From positions 337-64,336 of the forward strand of contig JAVEXO010000012.1 of assembly GCA_034003955.1 (NCBI GenBank): a stretch of DNA of 64,000 nucleotides, in the 5' to 3' direction. The notes under the pieces were generated by a model. It searched no databases. It was not told where the DNA came from and saw only the letters and a list, made by a program, of their open reading frames with translations. The DNA comes from Spirochaetia bacterium. Lineage in GTDB: Bacteria; Spirochaetota; Spirochaetia; Treponematales; UBA12059. Shown here piece by piece: positions 3,940 to 53,979 of this stretch. Positions within the stretch are counted from its first letter, which is position 1; each line of letters starts with the position of its first letter. The position numbers and the translations under genes were made by a program.

Positions 3940-4012
<73 letters not shown>

Positions 4013-4015
4013 CAT

Positions 4016-4059
4016 AGCAAAACAAAAGGACCGCCAGTAGGCGGTCCTTTTGTTTTGCT
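4016..4059. terminator. Perfect 20-bp hairpin (bidirectional intrinsic-terminator-like) after tRNA-Ala
   Basis: AGCAAAACAAAAGGACCGCC-AGTA-GGCGGTCCTTTTGTTTTGCT. A/T runs lie on both sides. Confidence 0.75.
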
Positions 4060-4454
4060 AACCAGAATGGAGTGAGGGGAATTGAACGGTACGAGCGCGC
4101 GCCGAGAGGCGCGAAAAGGCGCCAGGGATGGCGCCGAAAGCGAGTACCGCGGGCTGGAGGCTCGAGCCACGGGGGCGAGAGTCGGAAGCCAATTCCCTCG
4201 CCGGTATCCCCCGGCGAGTTTAGAACAAGCCTTATACCAGTTCGCCAGTAGGCGGTCCTTTTGTTTTGCTAACCAGAATGGAGTGAGGGGAATTGAACGG
4301 TACGAGCGCGCGCCGAGAGGCGCGAAAAGGCGCCAGGGATGGCGCCGAAAGCGAGTACCGCGGGCTGGAGGCTCGAGCCACGAGGGCGAGAGTCGGAAGC
4401 CAATTCCCTCGCCGGTATCCCCCGGCGAGCTTAGCACAGGCCTATAGTCGCCTA
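4033..4454. repeat. Tandem direct repeat, 2 x 211 bp, near-identical
   Basis: Copy 1 is 4033-4243 and copy 2 is 4244-4454, with only a few substitutions (for example ccacgGgggcg versus ccacgAgggcg). A partial third unit at about 4455-4480 has the hairpin loop inverted (GCCAGTAGGC versus GCCTACTGGC). Confidence 0.9.
4068..4218. ncRNA. Candidate structured RNA element, copy 1 (copy 2 at 4279-4429); class unknown
   Basis: Nested helices read off the sequence. P1: GAGGGGAATTG (4074-4084) with CAATTCCCTC (4190-4199). P2: GGTACGAGC (4088-4096) with GCGAGTACC (4140-4148), containing tandem G-A mismatches. Hairpin CGCGCC-GAGA-GGCGCG (4098-4113, GNRA loop). Hairpin GGCGCC-AGGGAT-GGCGCC (4118-4135). 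Hairpin CTCGCCGG-TATCCC-CCGGCGAG (4197-4218). Strand not determined. Confidence 0.35.
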
Positions 4455-23569: not shown

Positions 23570-23598
23570 TTGACGATTCTGGCTTATAGGCCTATAAA
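23570..23598 (+). promoter_or_regulatory. sigma-70-type promoter of the lysine-fermentation operon
   Basis: TTGACG, 17 nt, TATAAA. Predicts an approx. 165-nt leader before kdd. Confidence 0.6.
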
Positions 23599-23645
23599 GG
23601 ATAGTCATCAAAAACCATTCTGAAAAGGCTCATTCAATAGAATAA

Positions 23646-23750
23646 ACGAGGAGAATAAGAGAATACGAGGCAAGAAAGAGGGGATTTGAAGGATAATTCC
23701 GTAAAAAGCCTTCTCTTTTAAGTCTCTTTATCTCTTGTACTCTTTGTTAT
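23646..23750 (+). repeat. Purine-arm/pyrimidine-arm element in the kdd leader (family member 1)
   Basis: GA-rich arm ACGAGGAGAATAAGAGAATACGAGGCAAGAAAGAGGGG (23646-23685) and CT-rich arm CCTTCTCTTTTAAGTCTCTTTATCTCTTGTACTCTTTGTT (23709-23750). The arms are imperfect reverse complements and end 12 nt before the SD GAGGAGG. Confidence 0.7.
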
Positions 23751-23772
23751 TATTATTTCACGAGGAGGTACT

Positions 23773-24813
23773 ATGGCTAAAGGATGCAAGTACGGCACCC
23801 ACCGCGTCATCGAACCGGTGGGAGCCATGCCACAGACGGCGCAGCGCCTGGACAATGACATGTCTAAGGTCTACGACAACGAGATTCTGTTGGACGTGAT
23901 CGCGCTCAACGTCGATTCTGCCAGCTTCACCCAGATAGAGGAAGAAGCGGGGCACGATGTAGACAAGATTGGCAAGAAGATCATGGAGATCGTGGGTGCC
24001 AGGGGCAAGCAGCAGAATCCGGTAACCGGCTCTGGCGGCATGTTCATAGGCAAGGTGGTCAGGATAGGATCGGACCTCAAGGACAGAGACCTCAAGGTGG
24101 GCGACAAGATTGCCAGCCTCGTGTCCCTCTCTCTTACCCCCCTCAAGATCAACAAGATAGTAAAGGTGATGCCAGAGGTTGACCGCGTGCTCATAGACGG
24201 GCAGGCCATACTCTTTGAATCAGGCATCTATGCCAAGCTGCCAGACGACATGGACGAGGGTCTTGCACTCGCCGCCCTCGATGTGGCCGGAGCACCCGCG
24301 CAGACAGCCAAGCTTGTAAAGCCAGGCGACAGCGTGCTTATTCTGGGTGCCGGTGGTAAATCAGGGCTCATGTGCTGCTACGAGGCGATGAAGAGGGTAG
24401 GTCCCACAGGCCGCGTCATAGCCAACATCCGTAGCGAGAAGTACGTAAAGCCACTCACAGAGATGCATCTGTGCCATGAGATAGTGTTTGCCGACGCCGG
24501 CAAGCCCGTCGACATGCTCAATGCGGTGCTCAAGGCCAACAACGGTAAGGAAGTGGACATAGTCATAAACTGCGTCAACATCCAGGGTACCGAGATGTCG
24601 AGCATCCTGCCTGTGCGTGATAACGGCATAGTCTATTTCTTCAGCATGGCTACCAGTTTTACCCGCGCCGCATTAGGAGCCGAAGGTATTGGCAAGGACG
24701 TGCTCATGATTATAGGCAACGGCTATACCAAGGACCACGCCGAGATAACCCTGTGGGAGCTCAGAGAGAACGCTCAGCTTCGCAAGTACTTTGAAGAGCA
24801 GTACGTAAAGTAA
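23773..24813 (+). CDS. kdd: L-erythro-3,5-diaminohexanoate dehydrogenase
   Basis: 346 aa. N-terminus MAKGCKYGTHRVIEPVGAMPQTAQRLDN and a GAGGKSG nucleotide loop, as I recall for Kdd. Context with kce/kamA/kamDE. Confidence 0.85.
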   Translation: MAKGCKYGTHRVIEPVGAMPQTAQRLDNDMSKVYDNEILLDVIALNVDSASFTQIEEEAGHDVDKIGKKIMEIVGARGKQQNPVTGSGGMFIGKVVRIGSDLKDRDLKVGDKIASLVSLSLTPLKINKIVKVMPEVDRVLIDGQAILFESGIYAKLPDDMDEGLALAALDVAGAPAQTAKLVKPGDSVLILGAGGKSGLMCCYEAMKRVGPTGRVIANIRSEKYVKPLTEMHLCHEIVFADAGKPVDMLNAVLKANNGKEVDIVINCVNIQGTEMSSILPVRDNGIVYFFSMATSFTRAALGAEGIGKDVLMIIGNGYTKDHAEITLWELRENAQLRKYFEEQYVK

Positions 24814-24851
24814 CAAGACATCGTGTAGAGTTGGGAGAGTAGCGAGGCGAT

Positions 24852-25248
24852 GGGAGGACGGCAAGCCGGGTTGCGCAAGCGCGCGATTGGCCGGCGGGGG
24901 CAGTCCGTCTCCCGGTAATTATGCGGCGTTCTGCCGGTAAGGATCAGGCCTACGCATACAAAACGTGAGAAGACGGTTAGCCGTCTCTCGCCCCGGGGGC
25001 TCCCCGTCCCCGGCGCGGCGAGCGTAAACGGCGTAGGATATGCCTGCGACGAGTTGACGCTTGCCGGAACGTATCGGCAGCCACCCCATAAGGGGTTGGA
25101 GGATGGACGAGACCATCCATACCGATCTTATGTTTTCCATTGTTTCTGTTTGTTTTGATTGTTGACCGAGGAACGAAGACTGGGGCGACAGGGTTTTAAA
25201 GGTTACGTTGAGTGGCACTCTGCGTGTCCCTTAAAACCCTGTCGCCCC
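24852..25248 (+). other. Non-coding, highly structured GC-rich spacer between kdd and kce (candidate cis-regulatory or processed RNA)
   Basis: No ORF of 60 aa or more on the operon strand. Helices: GGGAGGACGG/CCGTCTCCC (24852-24913); CAGGCCTACGC/GCGTAGG..GCCTG (24945-25046) enclosing GAGAAGACGG-TTAG-CCGTCTCTC and CTCGCC...GGCGAG; CCACCCC-ATAA-GGGGTTGG (25081-25099); GGATGG-ACGAGA-CCATCC (25101-25118); perfect 18-bp stem 25182-25199/25231-25248. Confidence 0.4.
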
Positions 25249-25287
25249 GCCATCGATCGTTACCTACCTACTTTAAGGAGGGCATAC

Positions 25288-26115
25288 ATGGCTCTTGACG
25301 GCAAGATAGTGATAACATGCGCGTGTACCGGCGCAGAGACGACGGTAGCCCAGAACCCGGCGCTTCCAATAACCCCTGATCAGGTGGCCAGGACGGCGGA
25401 AGAGTGCAGGGCTGCGGGTGCCGCCATCCTGCATCTGCATGTGAGGGACGATAAGGGCATGGCTACCCAGAGCGTAGCCAGGTTCAAGGAGGCCATAGAG
25501 GCCATCCGCAAGAAGACAGATATCGTCATTGAGATAACAACAGGTGGAGCCGTCGGCGACACGGCAGAGGAACGCCTGCGTCCAGTCAAGGAACTGCAGC
25601 CAGAGATGGCATCGCTCGACTGTGGCACCGTTAACTTCGGTGACGAGTACATAGTCAACGATCTGCCAACGATGCGGGCATTTGCAGCAGAGTTCAAGCG
25701 GCTCAAGGTTAGGGCCACGCTTGAATGTTTTGACCTGGGACATGTCTACGCAAGCCATTACCTCCTAAAGGAAGGCCTCATAGAGGCTCCATTACACTAT
25801 GGCTTCGTACTCAATGTGCCTGGTGCCGTACCGTACAGCGTCGAGAACCTGTCGGCCTTCATCAAGGCCATACCTGCTGGAGCCGATTTTACCGTGATGG
25901 GCATAGGCCGCTCGTCGCTTCCTGCCCAGTTTGGGGCCATAGCCAACTCTGGGTGGATTCGCGTTGGCTTTGAGGACAACGTATTCTTTAGCAAGGGAGT
26001 GCTTGCCAAGAGCAACGCCGAGTTAGTAGAGCGGGCCGTGCGCATATCCCACGAAGCCGGCTTAAAACCAGCCACGCCCGATGATGTCCGAAGCTACCTG
26101 AGACTAAGAGGCTGA
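25288..26115 (+). CDS. kce: 3-keto-5-aminohexanoate cleavage enzyme (BKACE/DUF849 family)
   Basis: Start at MALDGKIVITCACTGAETT (AAGGAGG RBS). TIM-barrel BKACE hallmarks (ILHLHVRD, EITTGG). Operon context. Confidence 0.85.
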   Translation: MALDGKIVITCACTGAETTVAQNPALPITPDQVARTAEECRAAGAAILHLHVRDDKGMATQSVARFKEAIEAIRKKTDIVIEITTGGAVGDTAEERLRPVKELQPEMASLDCGTVNFGDEYIVNDLPTMRAFAAEFKRLKVRATLECFDLGHVYASHYLLKEGLIEAPLHYGFVLNVPGAVPYSVENLSAFIKAIPAGADFTVMGIGRSSLPAQFGAIANSGWIRVGFEDNVFFSKGVLAKSNAELVERAVRISHEAGLKPATPDDVRSYLRLRG

Positions 26116-26372
26116 TAGAGGAAGACTTAAGGAAGAGGATAAGAGAAGAAGAGTAAAGAAAGAGGGAAGAGGGAGATGAGGAGCAGTGATTATGATCTGC
26201 TCTGTCCGGGCTCTTGTCCTCTTGTTCTCTTTGTCGATTTATTAGATGAGGTTTGGTTTAGGAAGACTGATGTAGATGTAGAAATTAGAGTTAAGAGTTC
26301 ATCAAGAGAAGGCCTGCTGAGAGATTCCTCTCGTTCCTTTCTCTTGTCCTCTTATTCTCTTTGTTAATCTTT
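26114..26372 (+). repeat. Intercistronic purine-arm/pyrimidine-arm element, copy A (two modules)
   Basis: GA arm 26114-26185 (GATAGAGGAAGACTTAAGGAAGAGGATAAGAG...), CT arm 26197-26236 (CTGCTCTGTCCGGGCTCTTGTCCTCTTGTTCTCTTTGTCG), second GA part 26236-26328, second CT arm 26329-26372. Long identical blocks are shared with copy B. Confidence 0.85.
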
Positions 26373-26387
26373 TATAGGAGGCTTACT

Positions 26388-27683
26388 ATGCATACTTATC
26401 CGTCTTACGATTACAAGCGCATTCCGCTGTATAAAGATGTGACGCCCGAGCAGTGGAACGACTGGCACTGGCAGATGAAGAACAACATCAAGGACGTAGA
26501 GACGCTGGCAAAGGTCGTCCCTCTGACACAGAAGGACAAGGACGGCGTGATAGAGGTGCTCAAGGTGTTCCGCATGGCCATAACGCCATACTACGCCTCG
26601 CTGATAGACCCGGAGAATCCAGGCTGCCCGGTCAGGCTTCAGGCTGTCCCGCGCCTGCCTGAGACGCATTTCGACGAGAGCGACCAGGACGATCCGCTTC
26701 ATGAAGACTCAGACAGCCCGGTTCCAGGCCTTACACACCGCTACCCAGACAGGGTGCTGCTCTTGGTCACCCATATATGCTCCATGAACTGCCGTCACTG
26801 TACACGCAGGCGCATCGTTGGTGAAGAAGACGCCAACATGAACGAAGAGTATATTGACGCCGCCATAGAGTATATAAAGAAGACACCAATAGTCAGGGAC
26901 GTGCTCATATCCGGTGGAGACCCCCTTGTACTGTCAGATGAGAAGCTAGAGAGCATCATAAAGAAGATACGTGCCATACCACACGTGGAGATAATCCGCA
27001 TAGGAACGCGCACGCCAGTGGTCATGCCCCAGCGTATAACAGACAAGCTTGTTACCATGCTCAAGCAGTACCACCCCATCTATGTCAACACGCACTTCAA
27101 CCATCCCAAGGAGATTACAGCCGAGTCTCGCGAGGCTTGCCGCAAGCTAGCCGACGCTGGCATACCACTTGGAAACCAGAGCGTGCTCCTGCGCGATGTA
27201 AACGATTGCCCGGTTCTTATGAAGAAGCTCGTGCAGAAGCTACTGACCATACGCGTAAAGCCGTACTACATCTACCAGTGTGACCTGTCACTTGGCATCA
27301 GCCACTTCCGCACTACCGTCTCCAAGGGCATAGAGATAATAGAGAACCTGCGTGGCCACACCTCTGGCATGGCAGTACCCACATTCGTCATAGACGCGCC
27401 GGGAGGCGGCGGCAAGACGCCAGTGATGCCAGACTACATGATATCAAGTAACGACAAGCGTGTGATACTGCGCAACTATGAGGGCGTTATCACCACATAC
27501 GATGAACCTACCGGTTATCACGAGGACTGTGGCAAATGCCGTATATGCTTCGACGAACCTCAGCTCAACGCCACCTGTGGCGTAGCAAGGCTTCTATCTG
27601 GTGACGAGAAGACCCTGGAACCAAAAAACCTGGTCAGAGCCGCCCGTGGCACCAACGCCTTCTCCCCAAGAAAGAAGAAGTAA
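26388..27683 (+). CDS. kamA: L-lysine 2,3-aminomutase (radical SAM, PLP)
   Basis: CxxxCxxC cluster motif CSMNCRHCTRR and conserved KamA blocks (ITPYYASLIDPENP, LISGGDPL). Start at MHTYPSYDY after AGGAGG. Confidence 0.95.
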   Translation: MHTYPSYDYKRIPLYKDVTPEQWNDWHWQMKNNIKDVETLAKVVPLTQKDKDGVIEVLKVFRMAITPYYASLIDPENPGCPVRLQAVPRLPETHFDESDQDDPLHEDSDSPVPGLTHRYPDRVLLLVTHICSMNCRHCTRRRIVGEEDANMNEEYIDAAIEYIKKTPIVRDVLISGGDPLVLSDEKLESIIKKIRAIPHVEIIRIGTRTPVVMPQRITDKLVTMLKQYHPIYVNTHFNHPKEITAESREACRKLADAGIPLGNQSVLLRDVNDCPVLMKKLVQKLLTIRVKPYYIYQCDLSLGISHFRTTVSKGIEIIENLRGHTSGMAVPTFVIDAPGGGGKTPVMPDYMISSNDKRVILRNYEGVITTYDEPTGYHEDCGKCRICFDEPQLNATCGVARLLSGDEKTLEPKNLVRAARGTNAFSPRKKK

Positions 27684-27699
27684 TACTAGTAAAGATAAC

Positions 27700-28296
27700 G
27701 AACAGGAGAGGGCTGATAGAGGAAGACTAAGGAAGAGGATTAGGGACAGTGTTTTGTATTGCTCTGTCCGGGCTCTTGTCCTCTTGTTCTCTTTGTTGAT
27801 TTATTGGAAGAAGCTTAGTTTAGGAAGATTAACGAAGAGGGTGGAAAGAGTGGAGAGGGATAGTTTGAGCGATCGAATAATTGGATGCGCTATCGCCGTA
27901 CACCGAGAACTTGGACCCGGGCTCTTAGAGTCTATATACGAGGAAGCTTTATGTCTGGAATTATCGGACAATGGGTTATCCTATAATAGGCAGCTAGAAC
28001 TTCCTGTTTCCTATAAAGGGATATGCCTTAATGGTTCTTTCAGGATCGATATGCTGGTAGAAGGATCTATCGTACTCGAGCTCAAATGCGTCGAGGCTCT
28101 CTTGCCGGTACACAAGGCTCAGTTGCGTTCTTGTTTACTCTTGGGTGGCTGGAATACTGGTCTGCTTCTTAATTTCAAAACCGCCATCCTCAAGAACGGT
28201 ATATACAGGATATCTATATGATGCACATGGCTCATCTTAAGTTATTTTTAGTGATTCCCTCTTTCTCGGCTCTTATTCTCTTATTCTCTTTGTTCA
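27700..28296 (+). repeat. Intercistronic purine-arm/pyrimidine-arm element, copy B, split by an inserted ORF
   Basis: 27716-27745 matches 26113-26143. 27760-27825 matches 26197-26262 (TGCTCTGTCCGGGCTCTTGTCCTCTTGTTCTCTTTGT-GATTTATT...TTTAGGAAGA). The terminal CT arm 28255-28296 matches 26323-26368. The GxxExxY ORF lies between them. Confidence 0.85.
27841..28221 (+). CDS. GxxExxY-family protein (PD-(D/E)XK nuclease-like fold)
   Basis: Diagnostic motif GPGLLESIYEEAL and family-typical length of about 125 aa (SDRIIGCAIAVHRELGPGLLESIYEEALCLEL...). Start is ambiguous: GTG 27841, GTG 27850 or TTG 27865. The upstream part of track ORF 27601 is the C-terminus of kamA plus repeat read-through. Confidence 0.75.
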   Translation: MERVERDSLSDRIIGCAIAVHRELGPGLLESIYEEALCLELSDNGLSYNRQLELPVSYKGICLNGSFRIDMLVEGSIVLELKCVEALLPVHKAQLRSCLLLGGWNTGLLLNFKTAILKNGIYRISI

Positions 28297-28317
28297 TCCC
28301 TGCTAAAAGGCTTTGCT

Positions 28318-29217
28318 ATGTTGGATAGTGCTGCTGATTTCCTGGGCAGGGTTACGTTTGTGACAGGCCCGGAGAAGCACTGCGGAAAGACAACATTCAT
28401 GAATCGAGCCGCACAGCTTGCCAGACGTGGAGCCAGGATGGCGGGTCTTGGTGGCCCGGCCCTCCTCACGGTTGGGTACGATGGAGAGGCTCGTGACTTC
28501 TTGTCCGGGGCAAGAAAGCCTGCCGTTCCCGTGTCGCCAGGCGATATAGTCGTCACGACGGAACGTTTCGCCCGGTCCTGTTTGCCAGAGATACTCGATG
28601 TACTGCCTGGCTCGGGTGCCATGGGGCGGCTCTGCATAGCCCGCGCGCACAGGTCTGCCACCGTGGCTCTGGTGGGGCCGGAAGGGAATTCACTGGTGGC
28701 GTGGGCCATCAAGAGGATAGTCAAGGAAGGTTTAAGCGGCACCGTGCTTGTAGACGGGGCCATAAACAGGATAACGCAGGCCGCGTCTCTTCATGGGTCA
28801 CGCTTCGTCTATGCACTGAGGGTAGACGGCGCTAACCTGGAACGTTCATTGGCGCGGGTCAGGCGCATGGCCACACTTGTCGGTCTGCCGCTTGCCTCTG
28901 ACATTGGGGTGGAAGGCAAGCCCGAACCGTATAGACTGCAGGATGCCCTGACCGCCGAAAGCGTGGCACGTCTACCCAAAAATGCCCGCGTCGTTGTGGT
29001 AGATGACTTTACAAAAATATTCCTCAGTGACTCGGAGCTGGCATCCTTTATGAGCGAGAAAGAACTGTATGTCGAGCGGAGCATCGATTTTGGCGGATTC
29101 GTCGTCATGTGTCGTGGTGTAAAGGATGAAGAATTCGAAAAGCGGCTAGATGATGTCGGTATCGCGGCAATGGTGGCCTACAATCCGTACGAGGCAAGAG
29201 CGGAGGGTGTAGCGTGA
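28318..29217 (+). CDS. P-loop-like protein of the lysine-fermentation cluster (possible aminomutase reactivase component)
   Basis: 299 aa. N-terminal Walker-A-like FVTGPEKHCGKTTF. GTGA overlap with the next gene. I recognise no other family. Confidence 0.55.
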   Translation: MLDSAADFLGRVTFVTGPEKHCGKTTFMNRAAQLARRGARMAGLGGPALLTVGYDGEARDFLSGARKPAVPVSPGDIVVTTERFARSCLPEILDVLPGSGAMGRLCIARAHRSATVALVGPEGNSLVAWAIKRIVKEGLSGTVLVDGAINRITQAASLHGSRFVYALRVDGANLERSLARVRRMATLVGLPLASDIGVEGKPEPYRLQDALTAESVARLPKNARVVVVDDFTKIFLSDSELASFMSEKELYVERSIDFGGFVVMCRGVKDEEFEKRLDDVGIAAMVAYNPYEARAEGVA

Positions 29218-35766: not shown

Positions 35767-36429
35767 ATGATTGAATACGTAGAAAACAAGGAAATAATTG
35801 CGCGCAGGATAGCGCGCTTCTTCTCATCAGGCGATGTCGTCAACCTGGGCATAGGTCTTCCCACTATGGTTGGAAACTTCGTGCCGGAAGATGTTACCGT
35901 CATACTGCAGTCAGAGAACGGCCTTATGGGGCTAGGACCGGCCCCTGAAAAGGGCAAGGAAGACAAGGATCTGACCAACGCCGGTGGCATGCCGGTAACA
36001 ATACTGGAAGGCGGGTGCTTCTTTGACTCGGCCACCAGTTTTGGCATCATTCGCGGTGGTCATGTAGACTACACGGTGCTCGGTGTTCTTGAGGTAGACC
36101 AGGAAGGCAATCTGGCCAATTACACGATACCAGGCAAGATGGTTCCAGGCATGGGAGGCGCCATGGACCTGGTCGCCGGCTCCAAGAAGGTCATAACGGC
36201 TACCACCCACCTTGAAAAGACGGGTGGCTCCAAGCTTAAACGGCGTTGCTCCCTGCCGCTGACCGCAGCCGCAGAGGTGGACATTGTTGTCACCGATGTT
36301 GGCTACTTTACCGTCAAGGGTGGGAAGTTCCATCTACAGGAGTACTTTGCGCCGTATACCCCTGAATGGATAGTAGAGCATACCGATGCCGATATAGTAC
36401 TTGAGAAGGATTGCAAGGAGTTTAGGTAA
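35767..36429 (+). CDS. atoA: 3-oxoacid/acetoacetate CoA-transferase subunit B
   Basis: Catalytic glutamate motif context ILQSENGLMG, and GMGGAMDL. Confidence 0.85.
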   Translation: MIEYVENKEIIARRIARFFSSGDVVNLGIGLPTMVGNFVPEDVTVILQSENGLMGLGPAPEKGKEDKDLTNAGGMPVTILEGGCFFDSATSFGIIRGGHVDYTVLGVLEVDQEGNLANYTIPGKMVPGMGGAMDLVAGSKKVITATTHLEKTGGSKLKRRCSLPLTAAAEVDIVVTDVGYFTVKGGKFHLQEYFAPYTPEWIVEHTDADIVLEKDCKEFR

Positions 36430-51920: not shown

Positions 51921-51939
51921 GGGCCATTCTAGTCGGCTA

Positions 51940-51987
51940 GCCTGATTGCAGGCTCGCCTGATTACAGGCTCGCCTGATTACAGGCGG
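51940..51987. repeat. Tandem 16-bp palindromic array (3 units)
   Basis: GCCTGATTGCAGGCTC GCCTGATTACAGGCTC GCCTGATTACAGGCGG. It consists of alternating inverted repeats CAGGC-TC-GCCTG and GCCTG-ATTA-CAGGC. Confidence 0.9.
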
Positions 51988-53907: not shown

Positions 53908-53979
53908 TGCCTGATCGAGCCCTGCAGGCTTGCAGGCTTGCAGGCTCGCCTGGTTACAGGCTCGCCTGGTTACAGGCGG
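53908..53979. repeat. Tandem 8-bp/16-bp palindromic array related to 51940-51987
   Basis: ...CTGCAGGCTT GCAGGCTT GCAGGCTC GCCTGGTTACAGGCTC GCCTGGTTACAGGCGG. The unit differs from the upstream array only by A to G. It overlaps the last codons of zur. Confidence 0.9.

What the first reader, a model, noticed from the sequence alone, without database searches (positions are those of the whole stretch)
23640..28317. Family of purine-arm/pyrimidine-arm intercistronic elements inside the lysine-fermentation operon
Seen in sequence:
- Three gene starts (kdd 23773, kamA 26388, P-loop gene 28318) are each preceded by a very similar pyrimidine tract. The consensus is roughly CTCTT(G/A)T(C/T)CTCTT(A/G)TTCTCTTTGTT, ending 10-25 nt before the RBS.
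- Each tract is itself preceded by a purine-rich tract that is its imperfect reverse complement, for example AACGAGGAGAATAAGAGAATACGAGGC at 23645 against the reverse complement of GGCTCTTATTCTCTTATTCTCTTTGTT at 28269.
- The kce-kamA spacer (26114-26372) and the kamA-downstream spacer (27700-28296) share long near-identical blocks: GATAGAGGAAGAC(T)TAAGGAAGAGGAT, and TGCTCTGTCCGGGCTCTTGTCCTCTTGTTCTCTTTGT.GATTTATT...TTTAGGAAGA. It is therefore one repeated approx. 250-bp element with two arm pairs.
- The purine arms are packed with GGA/AGGA motifs and SD-like GAGG runs. The pyrimidine arms are anti-SD-like.

Inference: in the polycistronic mRNA these elements can form long imperfect hairpins (A-U, G-C, G-U). 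Possible roles:
- RNase III-type processing or stability elements that set differential expression;
- translational switches, in which the CU arm masks the SD and the GA arm acts as anti-anti-SD;
- multi-site targets for a GGA-binding regulator such as CsrA.

I know of no described regulatory element for kam/kdd/kce operons of this type.
Basis: partly seen in the sequence, partly recalled or inferred. Interest (0 to 1): 0.7.

Follow-up and report, generated by a model that had tools for sequence, protein, structure and literature searches.

The report
Dispersed hairpin repeats with GxxExxY cassette
The repeated purine-arm/pyrimidine-arm sequences are real, but they are not a lysine-operon control system: they are copies of a hairpin-forming repeat that also sits in unrelated operons of related bacteria, and it belongs with a small nuclease gene (GxxExxY) of unknown function that is lodged between two genes of this operon.

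Summary
Five hairpin units with a GA-rich 5' arm and a CU-rich 3' arm lie at 23.64-28.30 kb, and nowhere else in the 64 kb.

The arms are built from 8-nt units (AAGAGnnn / nnnCTCTT). Their ends read AAC(G/A)AAGAG...CTCTT(T/C)GTT.

It sits in the loop of the last hairpin.

The elements are not a conserved lysine-fermentation regulator:
- Eight related loci covering this operon have none. They include the four loci of one relative whose enzymes are 88-94% identical.
- Three related lineages share the GxxExxY cassette and one kce-kamA hairpin.
- One of those genomes carries the same hairpin in three unrelated gene spacers.
- The octamer motif is multi-copy in MAGs of several other phyla.
- GxxExxY genes from several phyla sit co-directionally between genes. 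At least seven of eleven lineages have octamer-repeat inverted arms on both sides.

Best reading: a REP/MITE-like dispersed hairpin repeat tied to a GxxExxY cassette. It is co-transcribed with the operon, and any processing or stability effect on the mRNA is inferred, not shown.

I found no published description of this gene-plus-arms unit. Interest is moderate.

The parts
23570..23598 (+). Promoter-like TTGACG-17 nt-TATAAA upstream of kdd. It places element A inside the 5' UTR.
   Evidence: Read. The same TTGACG...TATAAG is conserved upstream of kdd in L121 and L144. Calling it a promoter is an inference. The generic scan did not list it because its second hexamer ends in A.
23643..23752 (+). 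Hairpin element A. The 5' purine arm is about 23645-23685 and the 3' pyrimidine arm about 23708-23748. It is inserted in the kdd 5' UTR.
   Evidence: Fold -44.2 kcal/mol, z = -5.0, against -21.8 for the - strand. nhmmer E = 5e-23. Absent in L121 and L144; a CU arm is present at the same place in L141.
26116..26240 (+). Hairpin element B1 in the kce-kamA spacer. The main stem runs 26130-26234.
   Evidence: Fold -42.3 kcal/mol, z = -3.0. nhmmer E = 3e-26. An orthologous single hairpin is present in L141 and L144. The spacer is only 42 nt in L121 and 4 nt in L125.
26255..26372 (+). Hairpin element B2, a second unit in the kce-kamA spacer (stem about 26287-26360). It ends 8 nt before the kamA Shine-Dalgarno sequence.
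   Evidence: nhmmer E = 2e-16. Fold no better than shuffles (z = -0.03). There is no counterpart in L141 or L144, so it is an extra copy in this lineage.
27712..27802 (+). Hairpin element C1, a copy of B1 with an internal deletion of most of the purine arm.
   Evidence: Alignment. Its 3' arm is identical to that of B1 but differs from the orthologous C1 of L139, although the flanks are identical and dS in the cassette gene is 0.012. This points to gene conversion between copies.
27823..27862 (+). 5' purine arm of cassette C2 (AACGAAGAGGGTGGAAAGAGTGGAGAGGGA). It overlaps the start of the GxxExxY gene.
   Evidence: Pairs with 28252-28298: -42.3 kcal/mol with the loop replaced by a linker, against -25.6 for the - strand. 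AACGAAGAG is conserved in L141 and L144.
27850..28221 (+). GxxExxY protein gene, a minimal PD-(D/E)XK nuclease, co-directional with the operon. It is the cargo in the loop of hairpin C2.
   Evidence: Pfam PF13366 1e-37, TIGR04256 7.5e-39. 100% identical to MDX9898163.1. dN/dS 0.08 against the L141 and L144 orthologues. Model pLDDT 95; best fold matches are Cas4 SSO0001 and lambda exonuclease.
28252..28298 (+). 3' pyrimidine arm of cassette C2 (CCCTCTTTCTCGGCTCTTATTCTCTTATTCTCTTTGTT). It ends 21 nt before the kamB-like start codon.
   Evidence: The outer 24 nt are identical in the window, L141 and L144 except for one C/T, despite dS of 1.1-1.4 in the adjacent gene.

Best explanation
These are five copies of a dispersed, hairpin-forming intergenic repeat, comparable to REP or MITE elements.

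**Anatomy.** Each arm is an array of three to five 8-nt units: AAGAGnnn on the 5' arm and nnnCTCTT on the 3' arm. The ends read AAC(G/A)AAGAG...CTCTT(T/C)GTT.

**Link to a gene.** The repeat belongs with a promoterless GxxExxY (PD-(D/E)XK nuclease) gene cassette inserted co-directionally between kamA and the kamB-like gene. The cassette gene sits in the loop of one hairpin. The other four units are ORF-less derivatives.

**History.** The cassette and one kce-kamA hairpin were present in the common ancestor of this lineage and two related ones. Further units were added later: the kdd 5' UTR copy, B2 and C1. Copies still exchange sequence by gene conversion.

**Effect on the operon (inferred, not shown).** The units lie in transcribed spacers, so they are part of the polycistronic mRNA. 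They should fold into 35-45-bp imperfect stems. Such stems would be expected to act as double-strand-specific RNase cleavage sites or as 3' exonuclease barriers. That would uncouple the stability of the kdd, kce, kamA, GxxExxY and kamB-E segments. This would be a by-product or an exaptation of a genome-wide element, not a lysine-specific switch.

**Spread (unknown).** My leading guess is that the GxxExxY nuclease acts on its own arms, as RAYT acts on REP.
For: **Shown**
- The family is real and restricted to five sites in the window.
- The last hairpin encloses an intact GxxExxY gene.
- Presence/absence at orthologous sites: L121-L124 (one relative; Kdd/Kce/KamA 94/88/92% identical) and L125-L128 have no hairpin at E <= 0.01 and short spacers. 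L139, L141/L142/L143 and L144 have the cassette and a kce-kamA hairpin. Only the window and L141 have the kdd-upstream copy. Only the window has B2.
- The same hairpin sits in other gene spacers of the MAG that holds L142 (L005, L089, L109) and between two long co-directional genes in another spirochaete (L048).
- The octamer CU motif is multi-copy in MAGs named as Bacteroidota, Cloacimonadota and Nitrospinia, among others, and in one unnamed MAG. Loci per genome in a truncated scan: 14, 11, 8, 6 and 5. 102 of 205 matches have a purine partner arm upstream, against 27 downstream.
- The arms of one hairpin co-vary at the linker positions: 157 of 266 Watson-Crick pairs, against 111 +/- 7 with permuted partners.
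- GxxExxY genes from 11 independent lineages sit co-directionally after another gene, for example fabD-X-fabG, radA-X and ade-X. At least 7 of them have octamer-repeat inverted arms on both sides. Flank duplex z-scores are -3.5 to -9.7 in six loci.
- Three independent GxxExxY loci carry CTCTT-type arms: the window clade, Ferruginibacter L004 and L136.
- The cassette gene is under purifying selection (dN/dS 0.08).
- The window's C1 3' arm matches B1, while its near-identical relative L139 differs there. This indicates gene conversion.
- There is no Rfam family, and no promoter or terminator enrichment.

**From established knowledge.** REP, ERIC and Correia repeats in mRNAs alter transcript stability, and Correia elements are cut by RNase III (PMC2649163, PMC10969869).
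Against: - All five window copies lie in the first 4.7 kb of one operon and none in the other 59 kb. I could not see the rest of this genome.
- All five have the same orientation. Their deviations from perfect complementarity are mostly G-U on the sense RNA: 13 G-U against 2 A-C in the window, and 36 against 15 in 16 hairpins. That fits selection on the RNA.
- The outer arm sequence is conserved over dS > 1. It is therefore constrained, not junk.
- No target-site duplication could be defined, no transposase is present, and no mobility mechanism is known.
- Most ORF-less hairpins in the fetched loci have no GxxExxY gene within 8 kb.
- A Bernardetia replicon with a GxxExxY cassette shows no second copy of its arm.
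- Strand preference relative to flanking genes is mixed across the wider family. An RNA-level role cannot be generalised from that, but it is not excluded here.
Confidence: 0.7

Rival explanations
1. Dedicated riboregulators of the lysine-fermentation operon. The hairpins would set differential expression or switch translation by masking and unmasking Shine-Dalgarno sequences.
For: - They sit in every long spacer of the 5' part of the operon, 8-21 nt before the next ribosome-binding site or start codon.
- Folding is strongly biased to the sense strand.
- The arms are conserved over dS > 1 in three lineages.
Against: - Absent from L121-L124 (one relative with 88-94% identical enzymes) and from L125-L128.
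- The same hairpin lies in unrelated gene spacers.
- The kamA ribosome-binding site (AGGAGGCT) lies outside the element and is conserved in element-free L121.
Confidence: 0.07
2. An intervening-sequence-like processing cassette. The arms exist to form a long dsRNA stem around the GxxExxY ORF, so that RNase III (or the GxxExxY nuclease itself) cuts the cassette out of the polycistronic mRNA. The ORF-less units would be selected processing sites. In this reading the RNA function is primary, not incidental.
For: - The ORF lies in the loop of a long stem, as in ORF-bearing 23S rRNA intervening sequences (own knowledge of Leptospira and Salmonella IVS).
- G-U pairs outnumber A-C mismatches in the sense RNA.
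- In all 11 lineages examined the gene immediately upstream of the cassette is co-directional with it, and the cassettes appear to lack promoters.
- The outer stem is conserved over dS > 1.
Against: - Across the wider family the more stable strand is the transcribed one in only about half of the co-directional cases.
- In L136 the hairpins next to the GxxExxY gene fold better on its antisense strand.
- The best fold matches of the protein are DNA nucleases, Cas4 and lambda exonuclease.
- There are no cleavage data.
Confidence: 0.2
3. Multi-site binding platform for a GGA-binding regulator such as CsrA.
For: GGA and AGGA occur repeatedly in the purine arms.
Against: - The GGA motifs are part of the GAGGA repeat core and lie in predicted stems, not loops.
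- Arm sequences in relatives and other phyla vary (AAGAG, CAGAGG, CGAAGG, GGGGAG) while keeping the 8-nt period and the inverted arrangement.
Confidence: 0.03
4. Integron-type attC recombination sites or cassettes.
For: - Promoterless, co-oriented small gene.
- Imperfect hairpins of about 90-125 nt.
- AAC...GTT near the hairpin ends.
Against: - The ORF lies inside the hairpin, not between hairpins.
- The sequence flanking AAC/GTT does not fit RYYYAAC / GTTRRRY (read).
- None of the 20 genes from 18.6 to 41.3 kb that were run against Pfam is an integrase.
- Copies are scattered singly inside ordinary operons.
Confidence: 0.03

Closest known systems
REP/REPIN elements with their RAYT gene (PMC3116915, PMC3733652)
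   Same: - Short hairpin-forming repeats dispersed in intergenic and intra-operonic spacers.
- A single-copy-type gene is itself flanked by the repeat in inverted orientation.
- ORF-less copies occur as singlets, doublets and tandem arrays.
- Within-genome homogenisation of copies.
   Different: - The associated gene is a 123-aa PD-(D/E)XK nuclease, not an IS200/IS605-like HUH tyrosine transposase.
- The arms are 25-45 nt arrays of 8-nt purine or pyrimidine units, not 20-40-bp GTAG/CGTC-tagged palindromes.
- No catalytic link between the protein and the repeat has been shown.
Bacterial MITEs that act in mRNA: Correia/CREE of Neisseria and ERIC of enterobacteria (PMC2649163, PMC10969869)
   Same: - About 100-150-nt elements with terminal inverted repeats.
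- Inserted in transcribed spacers and co-transcribed.
- Fold into long hairpins that RNase III or RNase E acts on.
- Presence/absence polymorphism between close relatives.
   Different: - No target-site duplication seen.
- No parent insertion sequence with a DDE transposase.
- Purine/pyrimidine-segregated arms with an 8-nt period.
- A nuclease gene is enclosed in some copies.
ORF-bearing intervening sequences of 23S rRNA (Leptospira, Salmonella and others; own knowledge)
   Same: - A small ORF of unknown function enclosed by a long stem formed from inverted repeats.
- Embedded co-directionally in a highly transcribed unit.
- The stem is an RNase III substrate.
- Sporadic distribution.
   Different: - The host is an mRNA operon, not an rRNA.
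- The cargo is GxxExxY, not the four-helix-bundle IVS protein.
- Excision has not been shown.
Intercistronic RNase III sites of phage T7 early mRNA (own knowledge)
   Same: Imperfect hairpins between cistrons of one transcript that could split it into separately stable mRNAs.
   Different: The T7 sites are unique, conserved parts of the phage genome. They are not members of a dispersed repeat, and they have no octamer repeat structure.

Membership tests
REP/REPIN-RAYT | Associated RAYT (IS200/IS605 TnpA-like, HUH Y1) gene flanked by the repeat | tested here: not met
   The flanked gene is PF13366/TIGR04256, a PD-(D/E)XK protein. Its fold is closest to Cas4 and lambda exonuclease.
REP/REPIN-RAYT | 20-40-bp palindrome with a GTAG or CGTC tag | tested here: not met
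   The arms are 25-45 nt of 8-nt units, with ends AAC(G/A)AAGAG / CTCTT(T/C)GTT.
REP/REPIN-RAYT | Many dispersed extragenic copies in one genome | tested here: inconclusive
   There are five copies in the window, all in one operon. At least 4 loci occur in the related MAG CAZNCK01. The rest of the source genome was not available.
MITE | Terminal inverted repeats, small size, no transposase | tested here: met
   Units are 90-125 nt with inverted arms. Arm complementarity exceeds permuted partners.
MITE | Target-site duplication | tested here: inconclusive
   Filled and empty sites (window against L121, L144) are too diverged in the spacers to define the junctions. No direct repeat is evident.
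MITE | Parent insertion sequence with the same ends and a transposase | tested here: not met
   The only ORF-bearing version carries GxxExxY. No transposase was found among the 20 genes from 18.6 to 41.3 kb that were run against Pfam.
MITE | Insertion polymorphism between relatives | tested here: met
23S rRNA intervening sequence | Located in a 23S rRNA helix and removed by RNase III | tested here: not met
   Located between protein-coding genes. There is no rRNA in the window. Cleavage cannot be tested with these tools.
Integron attC cassette | R''/R' core sites RYYYAAC / GTTRRRY, ORF between attC sites, IntI nearby | tested here: not met
   The flanks of AAC/GTT do not fit the cores. The ORF is inside the hairpin. 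No integrase among the 20 genes from 18.6 to 41.3 kb that were run against Pfam.
Any Rfam cis-regulatory RNA | Match to a curated covariance model | tested here: not met
   There is no match at gathering score. At E <= 5 there are only chance-level hairpin matches.
GxxExxY / PDDEXK_3 protein family (the cargo gene) | HMM match above the curated cut-off and intact E...D...ExK residues | tested here: met
   132.7 bits against a cut-off of 35. The invariant residues E27, D67, E77 and K79 are present.

The most novel reading that the evidence does not exclude
GxxExxY genes, together with their octamer-repeat inverted arms, form an undescribed cross-phylum class of "operon-hitchhiking" element.

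A promoterless minimal PD-(D/E)XK nuclease would be enclosed by its own purine/pyrimidine arm pair and insert co-directionally between genes. It would spawn ORF-less hairpin derivatives, as RAYT does with REP, and be kept for long periods under purifying selection.

The nuclease would recognise the arm arrays or the hairpin, at the DNA or the RNA level.
Probability: 0.35. Interest if true: 0.8.

Novelty: new variant of a known kind. Interest (0 to 1): 0.55.

Why it matters
**For this operon.** It removes a tempting but wrong reading, a lysine-specific riboregulator. What remains is a testable one: three spacers of a 12.7-kb catabolic operon carry stable hairpins that should segment the mRNA.

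**More broadly.**
- GxxExxY/PDDEXK_3 is a very large protein family: 19,116 clusters at 50% identity with E <= 0.001.
- It has no known function. The 2012 PD-(D/E)XK survey (PMC3424549) lists its function as unknown, and only three papers in the library mention the name.
- These genes sit inside hairpin-forming octamer-repeat arms, insert co-directionally into housekeeping operons, and share their arms with dispersed ORF-less hairpins. That gives the family a concrete genetic context and an obvious substrate to test.
- It may also define a second gene-plus-repeat partnership alongside RAYT-REP.

Tried and rejected
- **Rfam.** Nothing relevant at gathering score or at E <= 5.
- **Source contig.** An exact-protein look-up of Kdd to find the source contig found nothing on record. 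The source was identified through the GxxExxY protein instead.
- **Promoter/terminator scan.** No enrichment, so the hairpins are not intrinsic terminators.
- **Strict covariation test.** Requiring exact core motifs on both arms left too few hairpins (11) and gave no signal. It was replaced by a selection on core positions only.
- **Strand-preference test across the wider family.** Mixed result with noisy ORF calls. I do not claim a general RNA-strand bias.
- **Mononucleotide-shuffle control for arm pairing.** Uninformative for purine/pyrimidine-biased arms: the window and L141 score z of about -0.4 to -0.9. It was informative for mixed-composition arms.
- **ORF-less copies of the Bernardetia arm.** None found in its replicon.
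- **Other cargo ORFs in long "loops".** The ORFs were ordinary genes or repeat debris.
- **CsrA and anti-SD models.** Considered, but not testable here.
- **Integron attC model.** Rejected on anatomy.

Full report

Yes. The pyrimidine tract CTCTTRTYCTCTTRTTCTCTTTGT, with up to 3 mismatches, occurs five times on the + strand, at 23724, 26211, 26341, 27773 and 28270. It occurs once as its reverse complement at 23646-23669. No match is expected by chance. Tandem Repeats Finder shows that both arm types are arrays of 8-nt units.

A profile built from 12 such hairpins finds nothing else in the 64 kb.

As sense-strand RNA the units fold far better than their complements:
- A: -44.2 against -21.8 kcal/mol, z = -5.0
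- B1: -42.3 against -24.3 kcal/mol, z = -3.0
- C2 arms: -42.3 against -25.6 kcal/mol

B2 and C1 are not significantly better than shuffles.

**2.

The gene content is that of a lysine-fermentation operon:
- kdd 23773-24813
- kce 25288-26115
- kamA 26388-27683
- a KamB-like P-loop gene at 28318
- a MutS-like gene, kamD, kamE, a Na+/H+ antiporter-family gene and two CoA-transferase subunits, ending at 36429

The 634-nt "spacer" after kamA is not a spacer. It holds a 123-codon GxxExxY / PDDEXK_3 gene at 27850-28221. The gene lies between a purine arm (27823-27862) and a pyrimidine arm (28252-28298). The last hairpin therefore has a gene in its loop.

The anatomy is:
- A, in the kdd 5' UTR, downstream of a conserved promoter-like TTGACG-17-TATAAA at 23570-23598
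- B1 and B2, between kce and kamA
- C1 and C2 (with the ORF), between kamA and the kamB-like gene

**3. Comparison with related operons**

The organism is a spirochaete MAG. The best KamA hits are Spirochaetota, Rectinemataceae or Treponema, and the GxxExxY protein is 100% identical to MDX9898163.1 on a 65.9-kb contig.

One relative, sampled as loci L121-L124 (Kdd/Kce/KamA 94/88/92% identical), has a 42-nt kce-kamA spacer, a 6-nt kamA-kamB spacer and a short 5' UTR. More distant relatives (L125-L128) also have short spacers. The hairpin profile finds nothing in these eight loci.

Three other lineages do carry elements:
- L139/L140: GxxExxY 98% identical
- L141/L142/L143: 84% identical
- L144: 83% identical

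Each has the GxxExxY gene at the same place with the same arm pair. L141/L142 and L144 also have one hairpin between kce and kamA; L139, L140 and L143 do not reach that spacer. L141 has a CU arm upstream of kdd and L144 does not. B2 has no counterpart in the lineages that cover the kce-kamA spacer, and C1 occurs only in the window and L139.

The elements therefore show insertion polymorphism among operons that are about 90% identical in their proteins. Their number has grown from 2 to 3 to 5.

The cassette gene has dN/dS of about 0.08 at dS 1.1-1.4. The outer 24 nt of its 3' arm are identical in all three lineages apart from one transition.

Between the window and L139 (dS 0.012) the only strongly divergent stretch is C1. 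In the window its 3' arm has become identical to that of B1. I read this as gene conversion between copies.

**4. Is it specific to this operon?**

No.

The MAG that holds L142 (CAZNCK01) has the same purine-arm/loop/CU-arm hairpin in three other gene spacers:
- L005 and L089, each between co-directional genes
- L109, after a 717-residue ORF

Another spirochaete has it between two long co-directional genes (L048).

The motif is multi-copy in Prevotellamassilia (14 loci), an unnamed MAG (11), a Nitrospinia MAG (8), Alloprevotella (6) and several Cloacimonadota MAGs. Of 205 matches, 102 have a complementary purine arm within 1.5 kb upstream, against 27 downstream.

Among 38 hairpins chosen only on the core positions, the linker positions of the two arms are Watson-Crick paired in 157 of 266 cases. 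With permuted partners the figure is 111 +/- 7. So the arms of one unit are true inverted repeats.

A metagenome scan found three more independent examples with the narrower window-type motif.

**5. The link to GxxExxY**

Ferruginibacter (L004) has four tandem 80-nt hairpins of this type directly upstream of a GxxExxY gene. They share even the tail CTCTTTGTCG(G/A)TTTAT with the window. L136 has a GxxExxY gene inside CTCTT-type arms.

GxxExxY genes sampled from plasmid records and metagenomes all lie co-directionally after another gene:
- ade-X-mannose-1-P guanylyltransferase
- radA-X-FAD protein
- fabD-X-fabG
- radical SAM-X-Na+/H+ exchanger
- and others

Most are bracketed by a purine-rich octamer-repeat 5' arm and its pyrimidine complement 3':
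- Bernardetia: ACACAGAG.. / ..CTCTGTGTT
- Bacteroides finegoldii: CACCACAGAGG.. / ..CCTCTGTGGTG
- an alphaproteobacterium: AACAGGAGGCGGGGAGACGGGGAGGA and its perfect complement
- a Tara contig: AACCACGAAGG.. / ..CCTTCGTGGTT

In six loci no shuffle reaches the observed flank duplex energy (z from -3.5 to -9.7).

The protein model is confident (pLDDT 95). It is a minimal PD-(D/E)XK core, closest to Cas4 SSO0001 and lambda exonuclease. The catalytic E, D and ExK residues are invariant in the family.

The family is very large: 19,116 clusters at 50% identity with E <= 0.001. It is functionally uncharacterised.

**6. How it most likely works**

Shown:
- The units are members of a dispersed inverted-repeat family tied to a GxxExxY cassette.
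- They are insertions in transcribed spacers.
- The cassette and its outer arms are under constraint.
- Copies recombine with one another.

Inferred:
- Being co-transcribed, the units fold in the mRNA.
- By analogy with REP, ERIC and Correia elements (PMC2649163, PMC10969869), they then serve as double-strand RNase targets or exonuclease barriers that uncouple the stability of operon segments.

The excess of G-U over A-C between arms (13 against 2 in the window, 36 against 15 overall) fits RNA-level tolerance or selection here. However, the copies are not independent, and the wider family shows no consistent strand bias relative to flanking genes.

How the units spread is unknown. An action of the GxxExxY nuclease on its own arms is the obvious hypothesis, but it is untested.

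**7. Comparison with known systems**

The closest analogies are:
- REP/REPIN with RAYT (PMC3116915)
- mRNA-active MITEs
- ORF-bearing 23S rRNA intervening sequences

The element fails the defining tests of each:
- The gene is not a HUH transposase.
- There is no GTAG/CGTC tag.
- There is no target duplication and no parent insertion sequence.
- It is not in rRNA.

An integron attC reading fails on anatomy. No Rfam family matches.

A 2024 MITE review has no hit for Treponema, spirochaetes, Bacteroid- or purine (PMC10969869).

**8. Verdict**

The operon-specific regulatory interpretation is not supported, although the hairpin-in-mRNA part stands.

The element is a new variant of a known kind, a dispersed hairpin repeat partnered with a gene. 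It has a potentially more interesting general story around GxxExxY cassettes.

Noticed in passing
window 24830-25140 (kdd-kce spacer); also L121:2133-2480, L141:1121-1440, L144:1199-1520, L125:1972-2306, L127:2543-2858: A conserved, GC-rich non-coding block of about 300 nt downstream of kdd. RNAalifold predicts 76 pairs, 19 of them with compensatory double changes in 6 sequences. It contains invariant stretches such as CCGG..GCTCCCCG..CCCGGCGCGGC. There is no Rfam match at E <= 5. In more distant relatives it precedes an aminotransferase gene instead of kce. It is a candidate undescribed structured RNA or leader of the lysine-fermentation operon.
   Followed up: partly
window 25182-25248: A hairpin with 33-nt arms (85% complementary) just upstream of the kce ribosome-binding site. 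L141 and L144 have a hairpin at the same position with an unrelated sequence. No U-tract follows, so it is not a typical terminator.
   Followed up: no
window 24814-25287 compared with L125:1972-3590 and L127:2543-4175: Outgroup operons carry an Aminotran_3 gene between kdd and kce. The window clade (window, L121, L141, L144) lacks it and keeps only the conserved non-coding block.
   Followed up: no
window 51935-51985 and 53923-53977: A second, unrelated small repeat. It consists of tandem 16-nt units, each containing the mini-palindrome GCCTGRTTRCAGGC. There are five copies, against 0.2 expected. They lie directly after the stop codons of two consecutive + strand ORFs (ending 51920 and 53904).
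   Followed up: partly
window 4032-4443: Two tandem copies of a 211-nt unit (98% identical) immediately downstream of the only tRNA gene in the window (3940-4012).
   Followed up: no
L090:1-1250 (Cloacimonadota MAG), and also L015, L041, L049: Cloacimonadota intergenic regions are packed with several different 8-10-nt tandem repeat types (CTCTTTTA, TTCTCTGC, CATCTCGC, CTCGACCT and others). L090 has an array with a 141-nt period of near-identical units carrying the CU motif. No credible ORFs lie in these stretches.
   Followed up: partly
Proteins P0244-P0258: Many of the best GxxExxY representatives are 260-295 aa with two GxxExxY domains. They are either tandem cassettes fused by gene callers or real tandem-domain proteins.
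   Followed up: no
L139:1 (contig BAAFUR010000048.1 starts inside kamA): The 81-kb contig of the closest relative begins within kamA, just upstream of the hairpin and cassette region. This may be an assembly break caused by the repeats.
   Followed up: no
L149:1290-1900 (Prevotella nigrescens): Here the GxxExxY gene is bracketed by a direct repeat (GGATTTGGAAAGATTT before and after) rather than inverted arms. In Sphingomonas L147 (fabD-X-fabG) only the 5' octamer arm is present.
   Followed up: no
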